The notes under the pieces are model-generated. The model had not been told where the DNA came from. It ran no database searches and worked only from the letters and a program-made list of their open reading frames with translations. Both the position numbers and the translations under genes were made by a program. A stretch of DNA of 64,000 bases from a virus. Below are positions 1-64,000 of the stretch, piece by piece (position 1 is the first letter of the stretch; the number at the start of each line of letters is the position of its first letter). The DNA lies in the IMG/VR virus record IMGVR_UViG_3300033144_003384, positions 19,757 through 83,756 of that record; one strand, 5' to 3'.

Positions 1-147
1 GGTCGATGTTTAGGGGTAGTGCCATTGGGTTCTCCTTTTGTTGCACTCCTTATGCTTATCAGTGTATAAGGTCGGCGCTCTCTTGTCAAGTCATTTATCT
101 GAAAAGAATCACTTGACATACTGTCCCCAATAGTGTATAATAGAGGT

Positions 148-498
148 ATGAGAACAAGAACAGAAACGCCCCAAATTGGAGCGACCATCAAAGACAAACG
201 GTGGCACTTCATCCCCGAAGGTAAGTGGCTCTGGTCTTACTGCGGCCTGCGCCTAACCGACGAACCGCACCTAAACAAGCTACTCGACCACCTAGCCCCA
301 AGCTGGGACACCACGATGAACGCTTGTGATGAGTGCCTTCAGGCTCACAAAGACTGGCTGGAAAGCCCGACCGAATACGAACAAGAGAGAAAGTGGGCGA
401 ACAACCATATGGCATCCATCATGGGAACCCCAGCGCCAAGCTTCGATGACTTCGGGGATTGGCTTCAGTACGACGACGAGGACGAGGAAGCTGCGTGA
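148..498 (+). CDS. hypothetical phage protein, leaderless
   Basis: TTGACA(113-118)-N17-TATAAT(136-141), ATG 6 nt later; followed by a GC hairpin with T run (512-540). Confidence 0.7.
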   Translation: MRTRTETPQIGATIKDKRWHFIPEGKWLWSYCGLRLTDEPHLNKLLDHLAPSWDTTMNACDECLQAHKDWLESPTEYEQERKWANNHMASIMGTPAPSFDDFGDWLQYDDEDEEAA

Positions 499-574
499 CA
501 AAAGGAGATTTGGCCCCCTGCTCCGGCGGGGGGCTTTTCCTGTGCCGCCGGGACTGTTGGAGTACACTGAAGGC

Positions 575-799
575 ATGAAGTACAAGAAGTGCGACGACTG
601 CACGAGATATGTCCCCGCCTCCCAGGTAGCCCCGATCGGGGCACTCCTTCGGTGCGATGAATGCACTGATTTCGAGACGATGACAAGGCTTCTCCCCCGC
701 CAACCGGAGGAAACGTGGGTCGAGATGTGGGACCACGAAAACCCTTTCAGCCCATACGATGATGGCCGTGGGTATTACGCTCCAGTATATGTGGCGTAG
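575..799 (+). CDS. small CxxC Zn-finger-like hypothetical protein
   Basis: TACACT(563-568), ATG 6 nt later; two CxxC pairs (KCDDC, RCDEC). Confidence 0.55.
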   Translation: MKYKKCDDCTRYVPASQVAPIGALLRCDECTDFETMTRLLPRQPEETWVEMWDHENPFSPYDDGRGYYAPVYVA

Positions 800-895
800 C
801 CGGGGCTAATTGGGCACAAAAGAAAGGCCGCCCGCTAAGGCGACCCTTCTCGTTTTGCTCTGACCCGTTTTGCTCCAGTTGGAGTGGGTACTGGC

Positions 896-975
896 TGGTG
901 GAGCTGGCGGGAATCGAACCCGCTTCCAGACATTTGCACTTCGGCATTTCAGTCTGTCGAAACCATTACAGCCCC
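896..975 (-). ncRNA. ssrA: minimal tmRNA (tRNA-like domain only)
   Basis: GGGGCUG-UAAUGGUUUCGA-CAGAC...GUCUG-GAA-GCGGG-UUCGAUU-CCCGC-CAGCUCC-ACCA: G3.U70 Ala determinant, stemless D-loop, P2a helix, T-arm, encoded CCA; no room for a tag ORF. Confidence 0.9.
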
Positions 976-976
976 T

Positions 977-1056
977 TGGTGCCAACCTGCGGAATTGAAC
1001 CGCAGCCCCTTTCCCGATATCACTCGGGGGTTACCTTGGGTGTTTATCCCGTTGGC
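977..1056 (-). ncRNA. tRNA-like RNA with non-canonical core
   Basis: GCCAAC/GUUGGC-ACCA acceptor and CUGCGG-UUCAAUU-CCGCAG T-arm, but no canonical D or anticodon arm. Confidence 0.65.
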
Positions 1057-1057
1057 A

Positions 1058-1234
1058 TGGTAGTTGCTCGATCCCCCTCCGGAGAGTGGGGGCAGTAGGG
1101 AGGCTATCCGCGTCTTACCTTTTCAGCAGGGCTCGTATTAGGTTTCCCCGCGCAGTCCCCGTTGGGGGCGATGCGGGTTTCGCTGCCGGAGGTTCACTCC
1201 CGTCCCCACACTCAGGGTGGGGATCGAACTGTCA
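1058..1234 (-). ncRNA. candidate ~175-nt structured RNA of unknown class
   Basis: 11-bp closing stem GUUCGAUCCCC/GGGGAUCGAGC plus nested stems; lies between a promoter/boxA-like leader and two tRNA-like genes. Confidence 0.6.
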
Positions 1235-1295
1235 CTATTCAGTTGTCAAGGTGCTTTACTACCTATAGTGTCTCACATAACCACCCTCTTGTCAA
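1235..1295 (-). promoter_or_regulatory. promoter and rrn boxA-like leader of the ncRNA operon
   Basis: TTGACA(1295-1290)-N17-GACACT(1272-1267), then GCACCTTGACAACTGAATAG(1254-1235). Confidence 0.55.
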
Positions 1296-1363
1296 GGGTT
1301 ATCTCGGATTGTTTTATCTAATAAGCACTTGACACACTATGCTCAGTAGTATACAATGGATGT

Positions 1364-1591
1364 ATGCTACTAACTACTATGACACTCCGAGAGACATACG
1401 CCGCGCTCCCGTCTGCACAGACGGAACGGGTAACACGCTTCTGGTTCAAGTCGCCGTGCTACTTCGTAAGAGCAATCGACGTCGCCATTCACATCACGCT
1501 ACCAGAGTTGATCGACGGCTTCATGCCGATATCGGCTGCGTGGCTCCGAAAGGAATCGCCACGCTGGGGTCGAAGCTGGAGAAGTTGGTGA
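1364..1591 (+). CDS. hypothetical protein, paralog of 10345..10572
   Basis: leaderless after TTGACA-N17-TACAAT; shares SPCxFVRxIDxAxHIxLPEL and SPRWGRSWRxW with the paralog. Confidence 0.8.
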   Translation: MLLTTMTLRETYAALPSAQTERVTRFWFKSPCYFVRAIDVAIHITLPELIDGFMPISAAWLRKESPRWGRSWRSW

Positions 1592-1981
1592 AAGTACCCA
1601 AAGTCGAGGGCCCCTCCGGGGGCCCTTTTCTCGTGGCCCGGTAAGCCCCGGCTTCGCCTCATCTTGGCGTGCAAGGGAGGTGCGATCCAGGTGATCCGGC
1701 GGGGCTCGACGAGGAGGGGAGGGCCATCCCTCCCCAGCCACTCGTTCTTCAGCTCCTCGCCAGCTCCCGCATGAAGTTGGCATACTGGTTGAGATAACGG
1801 TCGATCTCGGGGTTGCCCCCGACAAAGATGACCCTTTCCTCGGTGCCTTTCGAGTCCTGACCGCACGGGCAGTCATCCATCGCTGGCGGGCGATATGACG
1901 GTTGCTCCTGCCCGCAGGTAACGCAGAAGTCCTTTGTGATAGTGCTCATACCCTTCCTTTCCTATTCGGGCTTACTCCCCC

Positions 1982-2084
1982 ATCATATCAGGGGGGTGCG
2001 ACAGCTTCTCATCCTGAGCGCCTACTTCACGTTTCAAACAATTCGATATTGCCCCTAGTAATTGTCACACCCCCGTGATACACT
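1982..2084. promoter_or_regulatory. divergent pair of PafBC/RecA-NDp-type promoters
   Basis: TGTCAC-N10-TACACT (2063-2084, +) and TGTCGC-N10-TATGAT (2003-1982, -). Confidence 0.6.
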
Positions 2085-2111
2085 AGTACTAACAAGAGCA
2101 AAGGAGGCAAA

Positions 2112-2336
2112 ATGATCAACATGTATCACGACCCAGAGGTACCGGCAGGGTATCAAGATGCGGACCTCGAAATGAGGGACTTGCGGGAAGCCGCAAACGA
2201 ATCGTACGAACAAGCATTCAGGGGACGGTGCATTGACTGTCACGGCAGGGGCGGATATCAGGATTACAACAATCACGGTAGCCGCAGAAGCTACCAAATC
2301 TGTTCGACCTGCGGTGGTGCTGGCGAACTGTTCTGA
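2112..2336 (+). CDS. small DnaJ-type Zn-finger-like protein
   Basis: AAGGAGG RBS; two CxxCxGxG motifs (CIDCHGRG, CSTCGGAG); downstream terminator. Confidence 0.65.
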   Translation: MINMYHDPEVPAGYQDADLEMRDLREAANESYEQAFRGRCIDCHGRGGYQDYNNHGSRRSYQICSTCGGAGELF

Positions 2337-2581
2337 TCCACCAAACTCGAAGCCCCCGCTCCGGCGGGGGTTTTCTTGTGGGCCCAGCACGCCCCGCCGA
2401 TCCGCAGTTCGTCGAACGACACGAAGGTAATAGACATGGTTGTTTGAGTATGCTTACCTGGCGAAGGCGGGGCTCGCCCGGTGCAAAGGAGCCGAGTGCC
2501 CAGTTCGGATCGTTTTACCCGGTAAGCCCCGTTGACGCAAAGAAAAAGCCCCCCGACGGGGGCTCCTCCTTGTTCTTCAGC

Positions 2582-3233
2582 TCAGTTTGTTGTGTCGTAG
2601 TCCTTCTTGTCGAGTATTGCGTCGCAACTGATGCACTCGATCTCAAGCACTATCCGGTCAAGCGGCACAGCGTTTGCCTCGTCCATGTCGAGCCGTCCGT
2701 CCTTCGTGCTTGCTGGGACGTTATTCACATCCTCCACGAGAACGTAGACAAACTCGTGCTTGCATTCGCTCATGCTGCTACTTTCTGGCCGAGTACCAAT
2801 CCGAGTACGACTGCGTCTAGGTAGTCGATGAAGTCTTGATATGTTCTCCGCCTGTCTCCGAACTTCGACGTTGATACACCTCCGTGGTCGGAGCCTTCCT
2901 CCAACCGCCAACCTCCGTAGGTGGAGTTGTAGTCGATGGTGAGTTCGAGTCCTGTCATGTTGGCGATGTTGCCAACCTTCAGGTTGATCGTCTCACGCTT
3001 GGCTTGCTTGCTCATATGCCTCTCCTGTCCATGCCACCAAGCTTTGGCTCGGTTGGCTTTCCTTGCAGGTGGCGGAGTGCCGTGAAGGTGTCCACGACGA
3101 ACATGCAGTCTCGGGCAGCGTTAGCGTCGCCCTCTTCCTCGAACATGATGGCCATAGCCCGGAAACGCTCGATGCGTTCCAGCGATGGTGTGCGCTTCTC
3201 TATGAAGCGTCCGATCTGGTCGTGGTTTGTCAT
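2582..3233 (-). other. operon of three small hypothetical genes (about 3012-3233, 2770-3013, 2582-2773)
   Basis: TTGACA-N17-TATACT promoter at 3285-3257, RBS, overlapping stop/start codons, terminator near 2545-2565. Confidence 0.6.
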
Positions 3234-3355
3234 GTTGTCTCCTTTCCTTTGTTCTAAGTATACCAGTATTCAGGTTGGATGTCAAGTGAATAAACAAAAG
3301 GACTTGACAAAAGGGGTCCAATGCTGTATACTGTAAGTAGGAAGGAGGCCACACT

Positions 3356-3589
3356 ATGACAAAGTTTGACACACCGCTAGCAGAAAAGCTGTACGGAGAG
3401 ATGCCAGACGACGAAAGCGGGTCCGTACAGGAACTCGGCTGGTACGGACGCTACGACAGCGAGCTGGTCATCCTCAACGAAGACTCCGATGGGTTCGTCA
3501 ACACATTCGAAGCAATCGACAAGGCAGACCTCGACCGATTCTGGAGCCTAGTAACCAAGGAATACGAGCTGTACTACAGCATCTCCTGA
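3356..3589 (+). CDS. hypothetical protein
   Basis: TTGACA(3304)-N17-TATACT, AAGGAGG RBS, terminator 3608-3630. Confidence 0.7.
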   Translation: MTKFDTPLAEKLYGEMPDDESGSVQELGWYGRYDSELVILNEDSDGFVNTFEAIDKADLDRFWSLVTKEYELYYSIS

Positions 3590-4000
3590 CCATCAACCAA
3601 AAGGAGGAGCCTCCCTCACGGGAGGCTTTCCTTGTGTCCTCGGCAAGTCCCGCCCAGGTCAGAACAAGGGCTTCTCGGACCAGGCCACTTCGCCACGCTT
3701 CTTCGTGATGTCGATGCAGTTCCCGTGCGCCCACCCGGTTGGACTCGAAGCCAAAGTGATCGAGTTTCCCCCGCCCTGCCTCCGGTTCTGCACCCACCCG
3801 ACAACACGACGATAGTTCCCATTCGCCTTCGTGTCCACAGGCTCCTTACAGAACTCGCAATTGATGTTCGGTGTCATGTCGGTACCTTACTCTCATCAGA
3901 TTTGTCCTACAACAACGACGCGGTTGCGCCATCGTTCTTGCAGAATCCGATATCGCCGGGGCTCCAAGAGGAGGGGGCCCTTTCGGACCCCCAGCTCTCA

Positions 4001-5002
4001 TCAGACCAGATTCAGAATCGCCTGCTCGGCGACCATCTTCTTCTGCGACACCAGTGACGTTGAGTCCATGGATGCCATTGCACGGGCGATGCCCGAACCG
4101 CTGCGTCCGTGGTCTAGATACTCGGTGACAGCGTTGTACAGCCCCCATCCGTTGAACCCGACCAGACCAGCGTTGCGGTTGTTGTTGAAACGTACCCTGA
4201 CGTCCGTCAAGATTTCGTCACGGTTTCGCTCTTTGCGATCCGTGTCGGCATCTGCGGCTGGCCATAAGGCGTTCAACACGACATCCACATTCTGCGATGC
4301 CTGCGGCACCGGGATGCGTAACAGCTCTTCGGCACGAGCCTTGAAGGCTTCCGCCCACTCGGTCGATATCTGCAACACCGCCTGTGCCTCTTGCAACGTG
4401 TCTTCGTAGTTCGGCGTGTGCCTTGCCTTGAAGGTCGATCGGGCCATCTGGTGGCCAAACCTGCACGTGTTGGCGCATACTGGGCGTATGTCCGTGTTTG
4501 AGTAAACGATCGGCATGGTTCCGTCGTGTGACGTTTGTACCAGCAAGAATCGGTCGATCTTGTCGTTGACACCGACGGGGTCGATGATCAGCGAGCCAAG
4601 GTCGATGGATGCGAAAAACTGGCGTCCGTCTTTCAGGACACCTAACGTTTCGATCACAGCATCTCCGTTGGACGCGCCAACGACCGCTAGCGCCTTTTCA
4701 AGCACCACGGCGTTCTGTACTACCCGATAGCGCTTCTTCATAACCTCGAAAGGCACCAGCGTTCCATCATGGTTGACCCGTGTCGTTGCGAAACGATCCG
4801 TGATCTCGATGAACTCACCAGCGTCATTCTGAACGAAGACAGGACGTAGGTCGACGTGATAGTTGGCGTGTGCGATCTCAAGCATTTGCTCGGCTGATTG
4901 CAACCCAACGACTGGCGTCCCTAGTCCGTGCCATGGTGTACCAGACTCGATGTTGTAGGCGAAGTTTGCCTTACCGTTTACGATCTCTAGTTCGTGTGAC
5001 AT
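4001..5002 (-). CDS. DUF932 (TIGR03299-like) phage/plasmid protein
   Basis: MSHELE...TPWHGLG start, SHDG and RPVCANT motifs, WGLYNAVTEYLDH C-terminus. Confidence 0.85.
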   Translation of the reverse strand: MSHELEIVNGKANFAYNIESGTPWHGLGTPVVGLQSAEQMLEIAHANYHVDLRPVFVQNDAGEFIEITDRFATTRVNHDGTLVPFEVMKKRYRVVQNAVVLEKALAVVGASNGDAVIETLGVLKDGRQFFASIDLGSLIIDPVGVNDKIDRFLLVQTSHDGTMPIVYSNTDIRPVCANTCRFGHQMARSTFKARHTPNYEDTLQEAQAVLQISTEWAEAFKARAEELLRIPVPQASQNVDVVLNALWPAADADTDRKERNRDEILTDVRVRFNNNRNAGLVGFNGWGLYNAVTEYLDHGRSGSGIARAMASMDSTSLVSQKKMVAEQAILNLV

Positions 5003-5082
5003 GTGGTTTCTCCCCTCCTTTCCTTTTGTGTCTTGTTTAGATAATATCACATTGAACAAACGATGTCAAGTACTTGTTGCAC

Positions 5083-5098
5083 TCGAACACCTGTTCGG
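5083..5098. promoter_or_regulatory. LexA (SOS) box within a promoter spacer
   Basis: TCGAAC-ACCT-GTTCGG lies between TTGCAC(5077-5082) and TAGAGT(5100-5105). Confidence 0.7.
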
Positions 5099-5111
5099 TT
5101 AGAGTTTCAGT

Positions 5112-7169
5112 ATGAAACCAGCCCAAGAGTCACAGGTTCTCCTCGCCCAAGACCACCTTGCACTCCTCTTCCCATATGTACCTGACCAGATCAAAGAACT
5201 GAAGGAGATACCCGGAGCCAAGTGGGACAAGCTCTCCCGAACTTGGCGAGTCCCGCTACGCCAGCTCGCTGATGTCAAGCGATTCGCCGAAAAACATGAG
5301 TTTTGGGTTGACCCAGATGTCCTTGCCATCCGAATGCCCGAAGAACCCTTCGGCACAGCTCAGTTCTACCACGAGAACACCTCCTTCTACGTCGAGTTCT
5401 CCTATGACCCGGTCATGGTCCAGTCCATCAAAGAGATCACCGGAGTGAAATGGAACGGAAAAGAGATGCGCTGGTCCGCCCCCGCCTCGGCCCTCATCGA
5501 AGTCGTCAGTTGGGCCGATCGTTTCAAAGTTCCAGTCCCAGAAGACATCCGACAACTCATCGAAGGAGAAGCCGGACTTCGAGAACAGCTCGTCGACCTG
5601 TCCCGATCAACGGGACTCGACGCCCCCATCGAGATCGCCGGGCTCGAAGGAGAGCTGATGGGGTTCCAACATGTCGGAGTGAAGTATGCCCTCGAAACCA
5701 AGAGATGCTTCATTGCGGACGAAATGGGCCTCGGAAAGACGCTGCAAGCCATCGCTGCCCTCCAAGTCGGCAAAGCGTGGCCTGCTGTCGTCGTTTGCCC
5801 ACCCACACTGACCCTGAACTGGGTGTACGAGATACGAAAGTGGCTACCCGAACTCACCATCAGCCACATCCAAGGCATGGCGAAGGCTGCATACTGCTCC
5901 AGTGTCCTGGATGCCTGGGACAGTCCCGTGTCTCCGCCAGGTAAAGAAGGCTGGTTCGAGGTGTCGTCGAAGAAAGACGCCAAGGAAACTGCGGGGCTCC
6001 TCTCCTCCTCGGATGTCGTCGTCCTCGGATACTCAACCCTCGGAAGCTGGCTGCCCGTTCTCGCCCGATTCGCTACGTCAGTTGTGTTCGACGAGTCGCA
6101 ATACATCAAAACGCCCACCGCCAAGCGCACCAAAGCCTCCATCAAGCTCGCCAAGGGGTGCCAGAGCGATTCTTCGATGGTGTTGTGCCTCACAGGTACC
6201 CCAATCACCAATCGGCCCGCTGAGTACGTCCCACAGCTTCAAGCCCTCGGACGCATAGACGACTTCGGTGGCGCATGGCCGTTCTACAAGAAGTTCTGCA
6301 ACGCCTTCAAGGACAGGTGGGGGCAGTGGCATCTCGAAGGAGCGAACAACCTCGAAGAACTCAACTACCGCCTCCGGGCCACATGCTATGTGCGTAGGAA
6401 GAAGAACGAAGTCCTCAACGACCTCGACGAGATCAGGTACTCCGTCATTCACGTCGAAGGAGACCCGGCGGTCATGTCGGAGTACCACAAAGCGGAGCGG
6501 GACATAGCGACCTTCATGGCGAACCGGGCGGCGGAGATTGCGAGGGAACTCGGAACGAACCCTCGGTCTGCGGCTGTCCGTGCGAGAATTCGGGCGGAGT
6601 CTGCCGAACATCTCGTAAGGATTGCTGCCCTCCGTCGGCTAGCGGCAAAGGCGAAGATGAAGCCCATCATGGAGCTGGTCGATTCCCACATTGAGGACGG
6701 ATCGAAGGTTGTGTTGGCAGCTCACCATCGTGATGTCGTGGATGAGTTGGCCAACAAGTACGGCGGGTACAAGATTCAGGGCGGGCAAGCCCCGGAGGAG
6801 GTTGAGCTGTTTAAGGATCGGTTCCAGAAGATGCCCGTGGATGAGGTTCCCGTGATGGTTCTTTCGATTCAGGCTGCTAAAGCGGGCCATACTTTGACGG
6901 CTGCCCAAGACATCGTGTTGGTCGAACTGCCTTGGACACCTGCGGACGTTGACCAAGTGATCGCTCGGCTTCACCGCATTGGACAGGAGGGGTCGGTGAT
7001 GGCGACGTTCATGTTGACTGAAGGGACGATTGACGAGAAGCTGTATGCCCTGTTGCGTGAGAAACGCCGCATCGTGGATGCTGCCACGGAGGGTGGCGAG
7101 CTTGTCACGGGCGACGTCCTCGGTGATTTGGTTATGTCGTTTGCTGAGATGGGCCTAGCTGATCTGTAG
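5112..7169 (+). CDS. SNF2-family helicase with two N-terminal HARP-like domains
   Basis: ADEMGLGKT (motif I), VFDESQ (II), LTGTP (III), QVIARLHRIGQ (VI); repeated 'GxKW...W' N-terminal units. Confidence 0.9.
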   Translation: MKPAQESQVLLAQDHLALLFPYVPDQIKELKEIPGAKWDKLSRTWRVPLRQLADVKRFAEKHEFWVDPDVLAIRMPEEPFGTAQFYHENTSFYVEFSYDPVMVQSIKEITGVKWNGKEMRWSAPASALIEVVSWADRFKVPVPEDIRQLIEGEAGLREQLVDLSRSTGLDAPIEIAGLEGELMGFQHVGVKYALETKRCFIADEMGLGKTLQAIAALQVGKAWPAVVVCPPTLTLNWVYEIRKWLPELTISHIQGMAKAAYCSSVLDAWDSPVSPPGKEGWFEVSSKKDAKETAGLLSSSDVVVLGYSTLGSWLPVLARFATSVVFDESQYIKTPTAKRTKASIKLAKGCQSDSSMVLCLTGTPITNRPAEYVPQLQALGRIDDFGGAWPFYKKFCNAFKDRWGQWHLEGANNLEELNYRLRATCYVRRKKNEVLNDLDEIRYSVIHVEGDPAVMSEYHKAERDIATFMANRAAEIARELGTNPRSAAVRARIRAESAEHLVRIAALRRLAAKAKMKPIMELVDSHIEDGSKVVLAAHHRDVVDELANKYGGYKIQGGQAPEEVELFKDRFQKMPVDEVPVMVLSIQAAKAGHTLTAAQDIVLVELPWTPADVDQVIARLHRIGQEGSVMATFMLTEGTIDEKLYALLREKRRIVDAATEGGELVTGDVLGDLVMSFAEMGLADL

Positions 7170-27422: not shown

Positions 27423-29055
27423 TCAGCTTTTCCGTCTCCTTTTCCGTTTCGGGATAGCTGGCTTGAGGTCTTCGTGACGGTAGAACCTGCTGCGTCCGTC
27501 GTTGTCTAGTAATTGGTATCCAGTTAGCGCACCGTCTTTTTCGATGAAGCGCATGATGGTCATGATGCGATTGCTTCCGTCTTTTGCTTTGACCTTGTCC
27601 CCCGGTACGAACGTGTTCATGAACACCACCCTACCATAGTGTCAAGGAATTGTCAAGCCGTTCGGTTCTTCGGGAACATCAGCGGGTTCGTAATTGAGGA
27701 CGAATCCGGCACGCTCCATCGTCTCCATAGCTTCGGCCAGTTCTTCCTCTGTTGGGGGGCTCCCGAGTTCCAGAAGCTCGTCCATGGTTTTCAGTACGTC
27801 ATCGACCTTGTCGCTGACTTCTTCAAGTAAGCCTTTCACATCTGCTGGCGTTGTGGTGATCCTCAGCCAGTTCAAGATTGGGCTCCTTGCGAACTTCAGG
27901 ATTATGGCGAGGGCAGCAAGCAGGGCGGCTACGGTGACGAGCCCGCTTGATAGCGAGTTTAGGAGTTCCATTTGCGCAAGCCTTTCCAGTGGGTTATCAA
28001 GCTTCTTGGCCGAATTCGGTGAGGGCTCCGCCGAGCCCATGGGCTGAATCAAGGTGCAGGATGTACAGGTCTGCGACAATCTCCCACATAGCCGCTACGT
28101 CTTCCCTGACTTCGTGTTTCGATACGATTTCTCCGCATCCGATGTATTCCTCGATGGAGCCGTTTGTTCTTTCGATTGCTATGCGTTCGCCTGCTTCGCA
28201 TCGCAAGGTAACCGTGCTGCCTGCCGTGACCGGAAAGGAACTTTCGTACTCCTTGGCCATTGTGTCGCGGATGTAATTGATCTCTTCTCTGGTCAAACTC
28301 ATCGTATTAACAGGCTAGCCGCAGGGATTGCAACCGAGGCTTACTTGCCTGCGAGTTTCCTAACTTGAGTTCCGCCAAGCACAACCATCGCTGATTGAAC
28401 TTTCGGTCGCCCCCCAACCATGCGCGCTTCGATGGTTACACTTTCTTGAGTAATCTCAAGGGCGGATGCGAGACGAGCCCTTACATCGGACGTATAGGAC
28501 ATGAGAGTAGCCTCTTCGTTGATTTCCACGGTGTTGTCCCTGTCATAGGAACATAGGCCACAGCCAATCTTCTTGCCTGGAGCTTTTCTCTTACGCAATT
28601 CCAGATGACCGCACTCCATCCAGTGCTCCCACCAGACATCGGGATAGCCGCCAGTTCTGACGATATCGACGACTCTACGCTTTGGCGCGTGTCTTCGTGT
28701 CAAGATATTCCTCCGCGCTTTCGATGGCGTCGTAGAGGTTTTGTGACCATGGCGACATCAAGGTTTCCGACCAAGGCGTTCCGATCCAATCCGGGTATTC
28801 GACCGGGTTGCCAGAAAGGATTTGCTTTGTCGTAGGGGGAGGCGCTGCGACAACCATCTCTTGGTAGAGGGCGAGAGCTTTTTTCTGAAGTTCGTGCTGT
28901 TCGTCGACCCATTCGAAATCTCGGTCATGCGGTTCGCCTTCGACCTTCAACATGGCACGCAACCCTGGCGAACCTTGTGGGGGAAGCCAACTTGGGTCGT
29001 CTTGATATGCCAGGAGAGCAATCATTAGTTCATCTGGCAGATGTCGGTCGGTCAT
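27423..29055 (-). other. five hypothetical genes
   Basis: ORFs at about 27423-27629, 27642-27970, 27997-28302, 28341-28703 and 28675-29055. Confidence 0.55.
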
Positions 29056-59675: not shown

Positions 59676-60131
59676 TTACGACTTGAACGAGTCTGTGAAC
59701 ATGTCCGGCGGTGCCTTGTAGGCTTTGTTTCCGCAAAGGATGTTCCACAGAATCGAACCGACACGACCGTTCCCGTCGAGGAATGGGTGGATGAGTTCGA
59801 ATTCGTGATACCACTCGTCTGGAGTTAGCGCGTCCCTCGCATCTATAAGATTGCCAAGCAGCCTTTCGATCTGTGCGGCATCTGCTCCGAAGTTGAGGTG
59901 GCCACCGACGACGACCGGCACAATCCGGAAGCCGTACTTGTTCTTTGTGGACTCCACGACTCTTCCCATTTCTTTGACCATCTGGATGGAAATGTGGCTC
60001 TTGTCTGCCCAGTCAAACATCAGGGATGCATCTACTAGACGAGCAACGGATTCTTCTCCGCTGTGTTGACGTGCGCATTCGGCGGCTGCCCAGTCAACCC
60101 TCATCATCATGTCTTGTGTGTATCTCATCAT
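59676..60131 (-). CDS. Fic-domain protein
   Basis: HPFLDGNGRVG. Confidence 0.85.
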   Translation of the reverse strand: MMRYTQDMMMRVDWAAAECARQHSGEESVARLVDASLMFDWADKSHISIQMVKEMGRVVESTKNKYGFRIVPVVVGGHLNFGADAAQIERLLGNLIDARDALTPDEWYHEFELIHPFLDGNGRVGSILWNILCGNKAYKAPPDMFTDSFKS

Positions 60132-60192
60132 GTGGACATGATATCAGAAAGCCACCATGACGTCAAGGGATGTTAGAATTAAAAGAGCCGCC

Positions 60193-60774
60193 CTACTTGG
60201 CGGCTACTTCTTGGTACTGCTCGATCATTTCTGGTGAGTGTTGTTGTGCCCAGGTATAGAAATCCTGCCACAAACGAACCCCCTCCGGTTTGGGGAAGGG
60301 GTTTTGCGGGTCCTGCACCGTGAGGTTGTTCCACGTATTGTCGGTGGCGTCACCATTGATGTGGCGAATGTGGTGCCCATTGAGAAGGTCGCCCAGATGT
60401 TCATAGGCGACCGCACGGTGTTCTGATATCCGATTGGATATAGAGTCTGGATGACTTGGCCACTGGTATGTCACGTAGCCCTTTGATTCAAACCATCCTT
60501 CGGGAGTTCCGTATTTAGTAGTTGCTTCAGTAATTTCGGTGGGGGCTTTGGGGTGTAAGCCTGATGTCAGGGGGATTTGTCTGGGGCGTCCGCCGCCCTG
60601 TGTACCCGCTTGGGATGGGAGGTTGGAGGTTTGGAAACATGGCCTAGAACAGAATGATTGTTTCTTGGTTTCGCTCAGTCGCCGTTCAAACGATTTGCCG
60701 CATATGGGGTTTTCACAGGTGAGTTCTACCCATTGTGATCTTCTCTGGCCTGCGTCCTTTCGTGTGGTTCTCAA
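60193..60774 (-). CDS. Zn-finger + HNH endonuclease
   Basis: CENPICGKSF...FCSRPC; EHR...HINGDATDNTWNNL. Confidence 0.8.
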   Translation of the reverse strand: MRTTRKDAGQRRSQWVELTCENPICGKSFERRLSETKKQSFCSRPCFQTSNLPSQAGTQGGGRPRQIPLTSGLHPKAPTEITEATTKYGTPEGWFESKGYVTYQWPSHPDSISNRISEHRAVAYEHLGDLLNGHHIRHINGDATDNTWNNLTVQDPQNPFPKPEGVRLWQDFYTWAQQHSPEMIEQYQEVAAK

Positions 60775-60880
60775 AAGATTTCCAAAATAAGTGATTGTTC
60801 CGCTTGACTTTATGACCGTTCGTATAGTATACTACCATCTGGGTAGCTGGTCAACGATCAGTTCCTTACGAACATTATAC

Positions 60881-60962
60881 GCCTTGGTGGCGAAATTGGC
60901 AGACGCATTCGGCTCAAAACCGAACGGTTCACACCATGAGGGTTCGACTCCCTCCCGAGGCA
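60881..60962 (+). tRNA. tRNA-Leu(CAA)
   Basis: cloverleaf, loop CTCAAAA, long variable arm. Confidence 0.9.
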
Positions 60963-61041
60963 CAAGGCACCGAAAGGTGTTAGTCGACTGGAGAGAATAC
61001 TCCGACCGACGGTTTATTGATAATTGCATAGCGATCCAAAT

Positions 61042-61114
61042 GTGCTGGTAGCTCAGTGGCTAGAGCGCCGCGGTGACATCGCGGAAGTCGCTGGTTCAAA
61101 TCCAGCTCAGCACA
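61042..61114 (+). tRNA. tRNA-Val(GAC)
   Basis: cloverleaf, loop GTGACAT. Confidence 0.9.
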
Positions 61115-61176
61115 CTGGGAACAGGAAGCAGATCACGCAGTAGTGGGGTCGGCTCATAACACACCTGTTCCCTCTT

Positions 61177-61259
61177 ACAGATGTGGCGGAACAGTAGACG
61201 CGTCAGGTTGAGAGCCTGGTAGGGGCAACTCTGTGCAGGTGCGAATCCTGTCATCTGTA
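61177..61259 (+). tRNA. tRNA-Leu(GAG)
   Basis: cloverleaf, loop TTGAGAG, T-loop TGCGAAT. Confidence 0.85.
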
Positions 61260-61298
61260 CTAGGTTGCCAATCGTGGGGAGTGTGCTACGCTATCCTC

Positions 61299-61838
61299 AT
61301 GGATGGTAACAAAGTTTGTACCCGATGCGATGAAGATAAACCGTTCAGCGCTTTTAACAAAAACAACAACCGTAAAGACGGTCGTCGTTCCGAGTGCAAA
61401 TCGTGTCGGAAGAGCAGGGAATCGTCTCCCTGCCCAACTTGCGGAACTTTGAAGGCTAGGCAAAGTTTGCTTTGCTTCGGCTGTTCGAGAGACGAGATGA
61501 AGCTTGATTCTCCTGAAACGCTAAAATATATGGACCCTTGTGACGTAGCGTGGCTTGCTGGAATCCTAGAAGGCGAGGGATCGTGGGTCAGAAAAGGCAA
61601 GGATCGAGTCTCGGTTCAGGTGGCGATGACGGATAGAGACATTGTCTACCGCTTAAGGAAGATAACTGGAGTTGGCAATATCTTCGGACCCTACAAGAGG
61701 GAAGCTCATCACAAAGAACTCTGGGTCTGGTCGGTTGGGGCCATTAACCATGCTAGGGATGTCACGGACAAGGTCCTTCCTTACCTTGGACAGCGAAGAA
61801 AGGCAAAGGCTGTCAAGCTTTTTGGAACGTGGGAATAG
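61299..61838 (+). CDS. Zn-finger + single-motif LAGLIDADG homing endonuclease
   Basis: four CxxC pairs, AWLAGILEGEG; leaderless after TGC-TACGCT. Confidence 0.85.
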   Translation: MDGNKVCTRCDEDKPFSAFNKNNNRKDGRRSECKSCRKSRESSPCPTCGTLKARQSLLCFGCSRDEMKLDSPETLKYMDPCDVAWLAGILEGEGSWVRKGKDRVSVQVAMTDRDIVYRLRKITGVGNIFGPYKREAHHKELWVWSVGAINHARDVTDKVLPYLGQRRKAKAVKLFGTWE

Positions 61839-61901
61839 CTCAGTAGGCAGAGCGCAACCTTGCCAAGGTTGAGGTCGCCGGTTCGACTCCGGTTTCCCGC
61901 T
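61829..61901 (+). tRNA. tRNA-Gly(GCC)
   Basis: cloverleaf, loop TTGCCAA. Confidence 0.92.
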
Positions 61902-61922
61902 CCGCTCCTAACGGAGCAATAA

Positions 61923-61995
61923 TGGGAGGTGGGTTGATGGTATCCCACCTTGTCTCTGAAACAAGGCCACGAAGGTTCGAGTCCTTCTCTCCCAG
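61923..61995 (+). tRNA. tRNA-Gln(CTG)
   Basis: cloverleaf, loop CTCTGAA. Confidence 0.85.
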
Positions 61996-62028
61996 CGGTT
62001 CCTGAGCATGACACCAAACTGCTCACAT

Positions 62029-62102
62029 AGGAGATAGGCGACGGGTGCCGATCAGATTCCAAACCTGATGTCGAGCGGGTTCGACTCCTGCATCTCCTGC
62101 CA
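62029..62102 (+). tRNA. tRNA-Trp(CCA)
   Basis: loop TTCCAAA, G73, encoded CCA; atypical D-arm. Confidence 0.8.
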
Positions 62103-62244
62103 CGGTGAGTTTCCGGATCACTCCGGCACGCCCAAACGGGCGTGGCTCATCAATGCGGTGATTCCCTCATTACACCGCGCTACCCGCTTGTCGGGAAAAG
62201 GGTCATGACGATGATCAAATGGTGTGACAATTAATGAGGTTTGA

Positions 62245-62319
62245 TGACAGTGCGCTCCGGTCGGGCGAGCTTGCCTGATAAGCAAGCTGTGCAGAGTTCA
62301 ACCCTCTGACTGTCAACCA
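62245..62319 (+). tRNA. tRNA-Ile(GAT), atypical
   Basis: loop CTGATAA, encoded CCA; 5-bp D-stem. Confidence 0.75.
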
Positions 62320-62320
62320 A

Positions 62321-62392
62321 TCCAAGGTGGCCGACTGGCAAGGCGGCTGGCTGTTAACCAGTGCAATGTGGGTTCGAATCCCGCCCTTGGAG
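62321..62392 (+). tRNA. tRNA-Asn(GTT)
   Basis: cloverleaf, loop CTGTTAA. Confidence 0.9.
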
Positions 62393-62393
62393 C

Positions 62394-62460
62394 TGTGACG
62401 TAACTCAGGGAGTATTCTGCTCTGTGACAGCGGAAGAGGGGTTCGAGTCCCCGCGTCACC
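62394..62460 (+). tRNA. tRNA-His(GTG), atypical
   Basis: loop CTGTGAC; 3-nt D-loop, extended anticodon stem, 4-bp T-stem. Confidence 0.65.
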
Positions 62461-62462
62461 CC

Positions 62463-62536
62463 GGCGACTTAGACTAACCGGATAAGTTCCCTGCCTTTCA
62501 AGCAGGTTGATATGGGTTCGAGCCCCATAGTCGTCA
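62463..62536 (+). tRNA. tRNA-Glu(TTC)
   Basis: cloverleaf, loop CTTTCAA. Confidence 0.88.
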
Positions 62537-62640
62537 CAAACGGCCCGTTGGAAGTCGTGACCGTCAGCGTATCAGGGCGCATTGGCGAATAAGAAGAAGC
62601 GAAGATACTCTGATTGTCAGCTTCAACTTGATCCAACAAA

Positions 62641-62713
62641 CAGGATGTAGCTCAGATGGAAGAGCCCCCGCCTCCTAAGCGGAAACGCCCAGGTTCAAAT
62701 CCTGGCATCCTGG
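62641..62713 (+). tRNA. tRNA-Arg(CCT)
   Basis: cloverleaf, loop CTCCTAA. Confidence 0.88.
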
Positions 62714-62857
62714 CGAGAGCAAGGTCCCTACGAAACCACGCGACGCTTCGGCCTCTCCGTGCTGGCATACCTTGCTCCCAATCGAGAGATGTAAGACGGT
62801 TTCCACAGGGCAGCACATAACCGTGGCCACGGCCTGCCTGGAACGCATTCTCTTCAC

Positions 62858-62938
62858 GCCGATATGACGGAACGGTAGACGTAGGGAGCTTAAACCTCCT
62901 GGGCGAAAGCCATGCAGGTTCAACTCCTGTTATCGGCA
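62858..62938 (+). tRNA. tRNA-Leu(TAA)
   Basis: cloverleaf, loop CTTAAAC, long variable arm. Confidence 0.9.
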
Positions 62939-62939
62939 C

Positions 62940-63508
62940 GAGACTGATGGACAAGTTATCGCTCTACCCCGTAGCTTCGGCAGGCGGGATGAGAGGAACC
63001 TCAGGACATCTCTGCATAAGGAAGGAGACGAAAGTCGCTTTTACTTCCGAGGATGCGACCGCAAACAGACGTAGCAGGAGTGCAGTGCTTAGCGTCGGGT
63101 AGCGGGCCAATAGATAGATGATAACTATGCTATCATGTCTCCATGAACGAAGTTGACGCAGCATGGGTAGCAGGCTTACTGGAAGGCGAAGCGTGTTTCG
63201 ACACAAACGCCGGAGGTAAGCGAAATCGTGTTGGGGCAGCCTATCCGAGAATCCGGATTGAGATGAAGGACAGAGATGTTCTCGTCAAGTTGAAGGATAT
63301 CTTGGGTGGTGTTGGTGGAGAGGTAAGGGAAGTCATTAGACAAAACCCGAATCATTCCAACACTTATTGCTATCAAGTTGGGGCTAAGGGTGACGTAAAG
63401 GTCATCCTTGAAGCAACGCTTTCCCACTACGGAGAGCGTCGCAGAGAAGCCGTACTTGGTCTCATGGAGATTTGCTAGTTACAGGATTCTGGGTACAGAT
63501 TCAGTTTC
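62940..63508 (+). ncRNA. rnpB: compact RNase P RNA interrupted by a homing endonuclease ORF
   Basis: P1 62940-47/63501-08; P2 62954-60/63120-26; CR-I GAGGAA + P4 CC(U)CAGGA pairing UUCUGGG in CR-V ACAGGAUUCUGGGUAC; CR-IV UAGAUAGAU; GGU loop. Confidence 0.85.
63143..63478 (+). CDS. single-motif LAGLIDADG homing endonuclease inside the RNase P RNA gene
   Basis: AWVAGLLEGEA, IEMKDRDVL; TGC-TATCAT ends 6 nt upstream of the ATG. Confidence 0.85.
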   Translation: MNEVDAAWVAGLLEGEACFDTNAGGKRNRVGAAYPRIRIEMKDRDVLVKLKDILGGVGGEVREVIRQNPNHSNTYCYQVGAKGDVKVILEATLSHYGERRREAVLGLMEIC

Positions 63509-63623
63509 ACACGCGCAGGCCCACGGTAAAGGTGGGTGAGCTTGGGAACCGACCGTATAGTAGCGCTACAATACGCGGAAAGGCCTTTGTAACAAGGGGG
63601 TGAAGGCCCCTCCCTTCGCTTCC

Positions 63624-63694
63624 GATTCCCGAGCCAGACGGCCCGGCGGCGGATTGCAAACCCGCATAACTCGGTTCGACTCCGAGGGGAATCT
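63624..63694 (+). tRNA. tRNA-Cys(GCA)
   Basis: cloverleaf, loop TTGCAAA, U73. Confidence 0.85.
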
Positions 63695-63698
63695 CTAA

Positions 63699-63769
63699 GC
63701 ACCTGTAACTTAACGGAAAAGTAGTTGGCTCTTAACCAATTAATCGGGGTTCGATTCCCTGTAGGTGTA
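63699..63769 (+). tRNA. tRNA-Lys(CTT)
   Basis: cloverleaf, loop CTCTTAA. Confidence 0.88.
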
Positions 63770-63774
63770 CGAAT

Positions 63775-63848
63775 GGACCTTTAGCTCAATCAGGTAGAGC
63801 AGCGGACTTTTAATCCGAAGGTTCAGAGTTCGATTCTCTGAGGGTCCA
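63775..63848 (+). tRNA. tRNA-Lys(TTT)
   Basis: cloverleaf, loop CTTTTAA. Confidence 0.92.
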
Positions 63849-63889
63849 CGACAGCCGAAGGGTTGTAAACAGTCGAAAGGCTGTATTGA

Positions 63890-63964
63890 GCTTCCTTAAC
63901 TCAACAAGCAGAGTCCGGCCTTTTAAGCCACGAGACGAGGGTGCAAGTCCTTCAGGAAGTACCA
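63890..63964 (+). tRNA. second, degenerate tRNA-Lys(TTT)
   Basis: loop CTTTTAA, 3-bp anticodon stem, D-loop without GG, T-loop TGCAAGT, encoded CCA. Confidence 0.7.
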
Positions 63965-64000
63965 AATGCCTACGATATCAGGCCAATCAACTGATTCATC

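What the first reader, a model, noticed from the sequence alone, without database searches (positions are those of the whole stretch)
896..975. 80-nt mini-tmRNA: tRNA-like domain with no mRNA domain
Seen: both ends of an ssrA gene (5' GGGGCUGUAAUGGUUUCGAC; 3' GCGGGUUCGAUUCCCGCCAGCUCCACCA). The P2a helix CAGAC/GUCUG is capped by a tiny hairpin in place of the pseudoknots and tag ORF. Established: G3.U70/A73 specify alanylation, and the stemless D-loop with short linker binds SmpB. I recall a TLD-only ssrA relative in mycobacteriophage DS6A, so this is rare rather than unique. Inference: an SmpB sponge or tag-less entrant to stalled ribosomes that alters host trans-translation.
Basis: partly seen in the sequence, partly recalled or inferred. 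Interest (0 to 1): 0.85.

Follow-up and report, generated by a model that had tools for sequence, protein, structure and literature searches.

The report
Phage mini-tmRNA without coding part
This uncultured phage carries a real 80-base gene for only the alanine-accepting, tRNA-like end of the bacterial ribosome-rescue RNA (tmRNA), a type published once (mycobacteriophage DS6A) that turns out to be common in phages and probably interferes with the host's rescue-and-tagging system.

Summary
Window 975..896 (minus strand) matches Rfam tmRNA end to end at 71.9 bits (cut-off 47, E 5e-26), with 312 model positions replaced by 18 nt. It has the G3.U70 acceptor stem, A73, encoded CCA, the stemless D-loop, P2a and the T-arm. 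It has no tag frame and no pseudoknots.

It belongs to the kind published for mycobacteriophage DS6A. My model of the family also finds the DS6A gene.

The kind is not rare. In IMG/VR, 92 of 101 pattern matches are complete minis with strong covariation. In prokaryote genomes only 7 of 104 matches are. G3.U70 is kept in every member while neighbouring pairs covary, so charging probably matters.

Best reading: an alanine-charged, SmpB-binding competitor of host tmRNA. Tag-less rescue is the main rival.

The local oddity is that it is the last of three abutting ACCA-ended RNAs before a terminator hairpin. The other two match no family.

No tag-coding partner piece, SmpB or integrase lies on the 83.8-kb contig, which is about 56% complete. 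This scan has reported such minis before on other DNA. Function is untested.

The parts
896..975 (-). mini-tmRNA gene (80 nt, tRNA-like domain only). RNA position i is window coordinate 976 minus i.
   Evidence: Rfam RF00023 at 71.9 bits, E 5.3e-26, model 1-374. MFE fold. Family model R1 (the window was in the seed, so its own R1 score follows by construction).
969..975 (-). 5' strand of the acceptor stem (RNA 1-7), with G3 of the G3.U70 pair
   Evidence: Sequence; paired.
957..968 (-). stemless D-loop analogue (RNA 8-19) with the GG and UUCGA motifs
   Evidence: Aligned to the tmRNA consensus. Invariant columns (the TTCGAC part was fixed by the search pattern).
927..956 (-). P2a helix (RNA 20-24 with 45-49) and its 20-nt cap: A-rich bulge, 3-bp stub hairpin with a 6-nt loop, A-rich 3' side
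   Evidence: Fold. The same layout is seen in most of 74 distinct family members.
907..923 (-). T-arm (RNA 53-69), 5 bp with a 7-nt loop
896..906 (-). 3' strand of the acceptor stem (RNA 70-76), then A73 and encoded CCA (RNA 77-80)
977..1056 (-). RNA2: an 80-nt tRNA-like RNA ending in ACCA, one base upstream of the mini-tmRNA. It has an acceptor stem and a canonical T-arm but no D-stem and no 7-nt anticodon loop. Its function is unknown.
   Evidence: Fold -31.9 kcal/mol, z -2.90. No Rfam family, including tRNA, at E up to 10. No ARAGORN call. No homologue found.
1058..1230 (-). RNA1: a 173-nt structured RNA closed by an 11-bp terminal helix and ending in ACCA, one base upstream of RNA2. Its function is unknown.
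   Evidence: Fold of 976-1270, z -3.96, 0 of 200 shuffles as good. Fold alone -77.4 kcal/mol. No Rfam match.
1267..1295 (-). candidate promoter of the RNA operon: TTGACA, 17 nt, then a weak -10 (GACACT) preceded by TG
   Evidence: Read from the sequence. Not listed by the scanner, which found only a + strand promoter. Weak evidence.
820..851 (-). 14-bp hairpin followed by a U-rich stretch, 45 nt after the CCA end: likely terminator, possibly two-way with the convergent + strand ORF that ends at 799
   Evidence: Fold. Weak Rfam hit to a hairpin-plus-U-tail model at E 0.027. Not listed by the scanner.
1329..1357 (+). divergent sigma-70-type promoter (TTGACA, 17 nt, TACAAT) for the + strand genes to the right
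   Evidence: 11 of 12 matches.

Best explanation
The 80-nt RNA is a phage-made, tag-less copy of the tRNA-like domain of tmRNA.

Proposed steps:
1. It is transcribed as the last unit of a three-RNA operon (inferred).
2. It is cut out like a tRNA, by RNase P at G1 and by trimming to the encoded CCA (inferred from the tRNA-like ends and the 1-nt spacers).
3. It is charged with alanine by host AlaRS through G3.U70 and A73 (inferred from identity elements that are conserved in the family).
4. It is bound by host SmpB through the D-loop/P2a core (inferred).
5. It then competes with host tmRNA for SmpB, EF-Tu and the empty A site of non-stop ribosomes. Because it has no resume codon, tag frame or stop codon, it cannot add the ssrA degradation tag.

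The net effect proposed is suppression of host trans-translation and tagging during infection.
For: - Anatomy: a full TLD with nothing in place of the coding part.
- Same kind as DS6A: my model R1, which did not include DS6A, finds the unannotated DS6A gene at record 28478-28560 with 57.4 bits, E 1.4e-11.
[quoted passage not shown] PMC11915505 says the DS6A form inhibits endogenous tmRNA when expressed in E. coli.
- The family is under selection. Across 74 distinct sequences, 96.0% of cells pair, against 67.4% in shuffles (0 of 500 reach it). 12 of 18 pairs have changes on both sides. Slid controls give 50-60%.
- G3.U70 is found in 73 of 73 distinct rows that have letters there. It is also found in all 10 further complete minis (8 distinct) found with positions 69-70 left free, where pair 4:69 is A-U, C-G or U-A.
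- It is a virus trait: 92 of 101 pattern matches in IMG/VR are complete minis, against 7 of 104 in one genome for each of 185,579 species. One of those 7 lies on a contig that IMG/VR also lists as viral.
Against: - Nothing about expression, processing, charging or SmpB binding of this RNA is shown.
- The published inhibition did not need chargeability. Strict conservation of G3.U70 therefore suggests something more than titration, which fits productive ribosome entry (the rival reading) at least as well.
- Blocking rescue would also trap ribosomes the phage needs.
- No close relative of this phage was found, so selection on this particular copy cannot be measured.
- The 3' junction reads GGAA, not the usual GGAC (4 of 74 members).
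- The search patterns fixed the 3' CCACCA and the T-loop motif, so invariance there is imposed.
Confidence: 0.5

Rival explanations
1. Productive tag-less rescue. Ala-mini-tmRNA with SmpB and EF-Tu enters the stalled ribosome and accepts the nascent chain. The ribosome is then freed by drop-off with peptidyl-tRNA hydrolase or by a release-factor-like protein. Ribosomes are recycled for the phage without tagging proteins for proteolysis.
For: - G3.U70 is kept in all members while neighbouring pairs covary, so charging appears to be selected.
- PMC11915505 (passage) argues that CDS-less mitochondrial tmRNAs, kept together with SmpB, still help with incomplete mRNAs.
- One cultured phage (Tunturi_4) has a tmRNA-like 3' element abutting a gene annotated as RF-1-domain release factor. 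That element is only a weak R1 match at 26.5 bits.
Against: - There is no stop codon or any template to end translation.
- No RF-1-domain protein or SmpB is on the 83.8-kb contig.
- None of the 25 (of 31) Pfam families shown for 115 nearest-neighbour ORFs of 70 minis is a rescue factor.
- The only reported experiment describes inhibition.
Confidence: 0.27
2. Decoy or bait for something other than the rescue pathway. Examples: a sink for a host tRNA- or tmRNA-directed defence nuclease, or a ligand for a defence protein with an SmpB-like domain. It may act together with the neighbouring tRNA-like RNA2.
For: - It sits in one operon with a second anticodon-less tRNA-like RNA.
- PMC11090510 (passages) describes SmpB-like domains in CoCoNuT defence systems that may bind tmRNA.
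Against: - No such defence-decoy relation has been shown for any tmRNA-like RNA in what I read.
- The conserved features are exactly those used by AlaRS and SmpB.
- RNA2 is an orphan with no homologue.
Confidence: 0.08
3. Non-functional remnant: a deletion derivative of a full phage tmRNA, or an attP-type fragment of the host ssrA gene.
For: - Many phages carry 3' ssrA fragments (739 records matched parts of the query).
- No close relative is available to show conservation of this copy.
Against: - Both acceptor strands are present and pair, whereas att fragments hold only the 3' part.
- The cap has the same layout as in other members.
- Exact 1-nt spacing in an operon with a terminator hairpin.
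- No tyrosine or serine recombinase on the contig.
- Family-wide compensatory changes.
Confidence: 0.06
4. One piece of a split tmRNA whose coding piece lies elsewhere.
For: - The contig is only about 56% complete.
- Phage two-piece tmRNAs exist: most of the 15 loci show the permuted order.
Against: - Gene order is standard, not permuted, and both acceptor strands are in cis, so the canonical way of joining two pieces is unavailable.
- The permuted-tmRNA model scores 23.0 and 15.2 bits against a cut-off of 47.
- There is one tmRNA match in 83,756 bases.
- 7-mer complementarity to RNA1 is at chance level: 2 overlapping hits against about 0.75 expected (my arithmetic).
Confidence: 0.03
5. An unusual decoding tRNA, for example an alanine tRNA without a D-stem.
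For: - ARAGORN at 80% threshold draws a cloverleaf.
- An earlier scan note (e1-6042632) reached that verdict for a different 70-nt element.
Against: - That cloverleaf needs a 3-bp 'anticodon stem' with mismatches and a 4-base anticodon.
- In the family the cap varies from 3 to 31 nt, and six short forms cap P2a with 3-4 nt, so there is no conserved 7-nt anticodon loop.
- The Rfam clan competition kept tmRNA, not tRNA.
Confidence: 0.03

Closest known systems
'TLD only' (CDS-less) tmRNA of Mycobacterium phage DS6A (tmRNA Website tmID 11587; Hudson, Lau and Williams 2014, PMC4131195; Mao et al. 2009, not held and not read)
   Same: - Same design and size: 83 against 80 nt, with a G3.U70 acceptor, stemless D-loop, P2a with a short capped stub, and a T-arm.
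- Both lie in actinophage-type genomes.
- Both are found by one covariance model and align.
   Different: - DS6A ends in ACTA in the record rather than ACCA, and its D-loop reads GTCGAC.
- DS6A's gene stands alone between two protein genes. Here it is the third unit of an RNA operon.
- The phages are not close relatives (no megablast match).
Canonical one-piece tmRNA (Rfam RF00023)
   Same: Both ends match the model end to end above the gathering score, including the alanine identity elements and the SmpB-binding core.
   Different: It lacks the resume codon, tag reading frame, stop codon and all pseudoknots: 312 model positions are replaced by 18 nt. Compare the 267-nt tmRNA with an annotated tag in Streptomyces phage Anedea.
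CDS-less organellar tmRNAs (mitochondria of jakobids and oomycetes; two plastid genes of about 65 bp), as described in PMC11915505
   Same: They are tRNA-like domains without a tag frame. Per the passage read, they are kept together with SmpB.
   Different: Those are the cell's or organelle's only tmRNA. This one is made by a virus on top of the host's own complete tmRNA, so competition is the natural outcome. I did not compare sequences.
Two-piece (permuted) tmRNA, including phage examples
   Same: A short acceptor-bearing RNA ending in CCA.
   Different: In permuted genes the 3' acceptor piece comes first and the 5' strand starts the coding piece (seen). Here the order is standard and complete in 80 nt. 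The permuted model scores below its cut-off.

Membership tests
tmRNA (RF00023), tRNA-like domain | 7-bp acceptor stem with G1-C72, G2-C71, G3.U70, discriminator A73 and 3' CCA | tested here: met
   Sequence and pairing.
tmRNA (RF00023), tRNA-like domain | D-loop analogue without a stem, carrying GG and UUCGAC, then P2a, closed on the 3' side by a GGAC-type junction | tested here: met
   alignment. The junction reads GGAA, as in 4 of 74 family members.
tmRNA (RF00023), tRNA-like domain | T-arm of 5 bp with a GGUUCGAnUCC-type loop | tested here: met
tmRNA (RF00023) | Score above the curated gathering threshold | tested here: met
   71.9 bits against 47.
tmRNA (RF00023), full function | mRNA-like domain with a resume codon, tag reading frame and stop codon | tested here: not met
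   Only 20 nt lie between the P2a strands. 312 model positions are replaced by 18 nt.
tmRNA (RF00023), full function | Pseudoknots PK1-PK4 (or their replacements) | tested here: not met
   There is no room for them in 80 nt.
tmRNA (RF00023) | Alanylation by AlaRS and binding of SmpB and EF-Tu | not testable with these tools
   Only the identity elements can be read. Their conservation in the family is shown.
TLD-only (CDS-less) phage tmRNA, DS6A type | Complete TLD of about 65-90 nt in standard gene order, with P2a capped by a short loop or stub hairpin | tested here: met
   80 nt; family lengths are 66-90 nt; cap layout is shared; DS6A is found by the same model.
TLD-only (CDS-less) phage tmRNA, DS6A type | Encoded by a virus | tested here: met
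   IMG/VR virus record with terminase, portal, protease, major head protein and endolysin.
TLD-only (CDS-less) phage tmRNA, DS6A type | Inhibits host trans-translation | not testable with these tools
   Reported for the DS6A-type molecule only (passages).
Two-piece (permuted) tmRNA | Permuted gene order and a separate coding piece | tested here: not met
   Standard order. RF04321 scores 23.0 and 15.2 bits against 47. One tmRNA match on the contig.
tRNA (RF00005) | Anticodon arm with a 7-nt loop, and a D-arm | tested here: not met
   No ARAGORN call at default threshold. tmRNA wins the clan competition. The cap length is not conserved in the family.

The most novel reading that the evidence does not exclude
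The three abutting ACCA-ended RNAs form one phage RNA module for taking over translation quality control. In this reading the alanine-charged mini-tmRNA enters stalled ribosomes with host SmpB and ends rescue without a tag. RNA2 is a second anticodon-less tRNA-like RNA with a non-alanine acceptor stem, acting on another tRNA-binding host factor. RNA1 is a stable regulatory RNA released by the same tRNA-type processing. More broadly, mini-tmRNAs would be a virus-specific family of charged RNAs that disarm proteolytic tagging.
Probability: 0.13. Interest if true: 0.8.

Novelty: new member of a known kind. Interest (0 to 1): 0.5.

Why it matters
Trans-translation is the main ribosome-rescue and protein-tagging system of bacteria and a drug target. 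A natural, virus-made RNA that competes with tmRNA would be a simple inhibitor design, and a sign that phages gain from switching tagging off.

In the papers I could search, print knows one phage case (DS6A), mentioned in passing. My searches may have missed others. Here the kind appears as a virus-enriched family with an invariant alanine identity pair. That makes the question 'sponge or ribosome entrant?' testable with simple mutants. Standard tools miss these genes: ARAGORN overlapped 2 of 92, both as spurious tRNA calls, and the DS6A gene is unannotated in its record.

Tried and rejected
- **Close relatives of this phage.** Megablast of window 1-6000 against phages found no match. An exact 24-mer in IMG/VR found none. 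Two metagenome scans with window-like patterns found none. 80 loci around helicase relatives (33-54% identity) hold only ordinary tRNAs by model R1 (4 hits of 28.7-33.3 bits). The tools warn that the window's own record and near ones may be left out.
- **Operon arrangement elsewhere.** A pattern for 'tRNA-CCA then tmRNA 5' end' gave 15 loci. Most are permuted two-piece tmRNAs and two are a tRNA followed by a mini. None resembles this operon.
- **RNA1 and RNA2.** No Rfam family at E up to 10. The weak RF04354 hits lie on the opposite strand of RNA2 and the mini, and that model also hits the strand opposite a real tRNA at 43.3 bits. I therefore read them as tRNA-likeness only. There was no blastn hit in phages apart from one 25-nt chance match. 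A single-sequence model R2 found nothing in 1.1 Mb of relatives. RNA2 is no closer to the phage's own tRNAs than the T-arm explains. No tag-like frame is seen in RNA1.
- **Expression.** No RNA holder was listed among public runs. I did not lay reads, because only contigs of DNA runs were on offer.
- **Cultured phages with 3' tmRNA matches.** Eight were fetched. By R1 they score only 26-39 bits: full tmRNAs (PegLeg, Marzo as annotated), fragments or divergent forms, not canonical minis.
- **Neighbourhood of 70 minis.** No SmpB, RF-1 or peptidyl-tRNA hydrolase family appears among the 25 of 31 families shown for 115 nearest ORFs. Six families were not displayed.
- **Short ORFs overlapping the gene.** The four of them (59-66 aa) match nothing in PHROGs or Pfam.
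- **Phage RNase P RNA.** Rfam gave no RNase P match at E up to 0.01 in 60000-64000. I did not pursue it.
- **Papers.** Mao et al. 2009 is not held, so its experiment is known to me only through two citing passages.
- **Claim of 'one phage case in print'.** This rests on searches and the passages only.

Full report
**What is there.** The window is bases 19757-83756 of an 83,756-base IMG/VR virus record that CheckV rates at 56% complete. It encodes a large terminase, portal, head protease, major head protein, endolysin, primase/helicase and an SNF2-type helicase, plus 14 tRNAs near its right end. The portal is 32-41% identical to those of Brevibacterium and Gordonia phages. I therefore treat it as an actinophage-like virus of unknown host; G+C is 51-56%.

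On the minus strand, window 975..896 matches Rfam tmRNA (RF00023) from model position 1 to 374. The score is 71.9 bits against a gathering score of 47, with E 5.3e-26. 312 central model positions are replaced by 18 nt. The match is global, not a fragment.

**Anatomy.**
- RNA 1-7 pairs with 70-76 and includes G3.U70.
- A73 and CCA are encoded.
- RNA 8-19 is a stemless D-loop analogue with the GG and UUCGA motifs.
- RNA 20-24 pairs with 45-49 (P2a).
- The 20 nt between them form an A-rich bulge, a 3-bp stub hairpin and an A-rich 3' side.
- After a GAA junction comes a 5-bp T stem with a 7-nt loop.
- There is no room for a resume codon, tag frame, stop codon or pseudoknot.

The fold energy alone is unremarkable (z -1.52). 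ARAGORN does not report the gene at default settings. When relaxed to 80% it draws a poor cloverleaf with a 4-base anticodon, and it never calls a tmRNA. The four short ORFs that overlap the gene match no protein family.

**It belongs to a family, and the family is viral.** A strict pattern was used: UUCGAC, 20-50 nt, the T-loop motif, six free bases, then CUCCACCA. It matches 101 IMG/VR contigs. In 92 of them a 5' strand that starts with GG and pairs 7 of 7 with the 3' strand lies just upstream. That gives 70 distinct RNAs of 66-90 nt.

A covariance model built from 15 of them, window included, recovers 95 matches in the window plus 99 loci. On that alignment of 74 distinct rows:
- 96.0% of cells are standard pairs, against 67.4% in shuffles (0 of 500 shuffles reach it).
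- 12 of 18 pairs show changes on both sides.
- Sliding the partners by 1-3 columns drops pairing to 50-60%.

Caveats: the alignment was fitted to the model, and the pattern fixed the 3' CUCCACCA and the T-loop motif, so invariance there is imposed.

As a control, I ran the same pattern on one genome for each of 185,579 prokaryote species. It gives 106 stretches, in which I parsed 104 matches. Only 7 have the adjacent 5' strand. The rest are 3' ends of ordinary tmRNAs or tRNA-like ends. Of the 7, six score 62-80 bits with the model and one scores only 27.5. One of the six lies on a contig that IMG/VR also lists as viral (L046 and L246).

**Relation to the published case.** PMC4131195 lists 'Mycobacterium phage DS6A (TLD only)'. 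It says that a similar molecule, chargeable or not, strongly inhibits tmRNA, perhaps by titrating SmpB, citing Mao et al. 2009 (passages). PMC11915505 (2025) names the DS6A form as the phage example of CDS-less tmRNAs, beside mitochondrial and two plastid cases. It states that the DS6A form inhibits endogenous tmRNA when expressed in E. coli (passage). Mao et al. is not held.

In the DS6A record the gene lies unannotated between gp33 and gp34. My model, which did not include it, finds it at record 28478-28560 with 57.4 bits. It aligns with the window's RNA along its whole length. I found no paper describing a phage family of such RNAs. This scan, however, has reported the same kind repeatedly on other DNA.

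**What the family says about mechanism.** The cap is not random. In most of the 74 distinct members P2a (mostly 5-7 bp) is followed by an A-rich bulge, a 3-4-bp stub hairpin and an A-rich return strand. Six short forms cap P2a directly with 3-4 nt. The window's copy follows the common layout but has a 4-bp P2a by the strict count and a GGAA junction, which is seen in 4 of 74. Cap length is not conserved, so there is no anticodon loop.

More telling, position 3 is G opposite U70 in 73 of 73 rows with letters, while pairs 5:68 and 6:67 take four or five pair types. Among 37 new loci, 10 have a complete 7-of-7 acceptor (8 distinct sequences). All 10 keep G3.U70, while pair 4:69 is A-U, C-G or U-A. 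No member has G3-C70 or A3-U70.

A wobble pair kept through this much divergence points to selection for alanine identity. G3.U70 with A73 is the established AlaRS determinant (from my own knowledge). A pure SmpB sponge would not need that, and the published inhibition reportedly did not need charging. I therefore favour a charged competitor that meets SmpB, EF-Tu and probably the ribosome. Productive tag-less rescue remains a serious rival.

Gene neighbourhood gives no help. The contig has no SmpB, RF-1-domain protein, tyrosine integrase or resolvase. The 115 nearest ORFs of 70 minis show no rescue factor among the families displayed. Twelve of 70 minis have a tRNA within 100 nt, and all 16 within 1 kb are on the same strand.

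**Local context.** The mini is the last of three abutting RNAs on the minus strand.
- RNA1 (window 1230..1058, 173 nt) is closed by an 11-bp terminal helix. The region folds far better than shuffles (z -3.96).
- RNA2 (1056..977, 80 nt) has an acceptor stem, a canonical T-arm, no D-stem and a central hairpin with a 6-nt loop (z -2.90).

Each of the three ends in ACCA and is separated from the next by one base. This is what tRNA-type processing would need, but I have not shown such processing. Upstream there is a TTGACA with a weak -10 (sequence only; the scanner did not list it). Forty-five bases downstream there is a 14-bp hairpin followed by a U-rich stretch.

RNA1 and RNA2 match no Rfam family, no phage record and nothing in 1.1 Mb of helicase-relative loci. 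Complementarity between the mini and RNA1 is at chance level. I can confirm the layout but not a function.

**Rivals set aside.**
- A half of a two-piece tmRNA is unlikely. The gene order is standard, both acceptor strands are in cis, the permuted model scores 23.0 and 15.2 bits against 47, and the contig has a single tmRNA match. The contig is incomplete, however.
- An att-type remnant is unlikely, because such fragments hold only the 3' part and no recombinase is present.
- A decoding tRNA is unlikely, for the reasons given above.

**Verdict.** This is a real gene and a new member of a known but barely studied kind. It sits in an unusual RNA-only operon, and its function is inferred, not shown.

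Noticed in passing
window 977-1056 (minus strand): RNA2: an 80-nt tRNA-like RNA with a non-alanine acceptor stem, a canonical T-arm, encoded ACCA, no D-stem and a 6-nt central loop. It matches no Rfam family and has no homologue in the loci searched.
   Followed up: partly
window 1058-1230 (minus strand): RNA1: a 173-nt strongly structured RNA closed by an 11-bp terminal helix and ending in ACCA (z -3.96 for the region). It has no Rfam match, including 6S-type families, and no tag-like reading frame.
   Followed up: partly
window 60881-63961: In the tRNA array, most of the phage's ordinary tRNA genes as printed do not encode CCA (the Trp and Ile genes do), whereas all three RNAs of the operon at 896-1230 do.
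   Followed up: no
L311 (Tunturiibacter phage Tunturi_4, PP885687.1 43379-44410, reverse complement): A tmRNA-like 3' element (weak R1 match, 26.5 bits, locus 433-532) overlaps the end of a gene annotated as 'RF-1 domain peptide chain release factor'. This may link a phage tmRNA-like RNA to a release-factor-like protein.
   Followed up: no
L309 (Xanthomonas phage Rb1, PQ569993.1) locus 421-532 and L313 (Xanthomonas phage BUDD) locus 444-533: Divergent, unannotated tmRNA-end-like elements of 90-112 nt in cultured phages. The Rb1 element has A3-U70 instead of G3.U70 and lacks the UUCGAC motif.
   Followed up: no
L221, L254 (Nostoc) and L224 (cyanobacterium FACHB-471): 84-nt complete minis (62-63 bits with R1) on large cyanobacterial contigs. 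I did not check whether they lie in prophages or are chromosomal.
   Followed up: no
L103-L117 (IMG/VR): Most of these 15 viral loci carry permuted two-piece tmRNA genes: an acceptor piece ending in CCA, followed 1-2 nt later by the 5' strand of the coding piece.
   Followed up: partly
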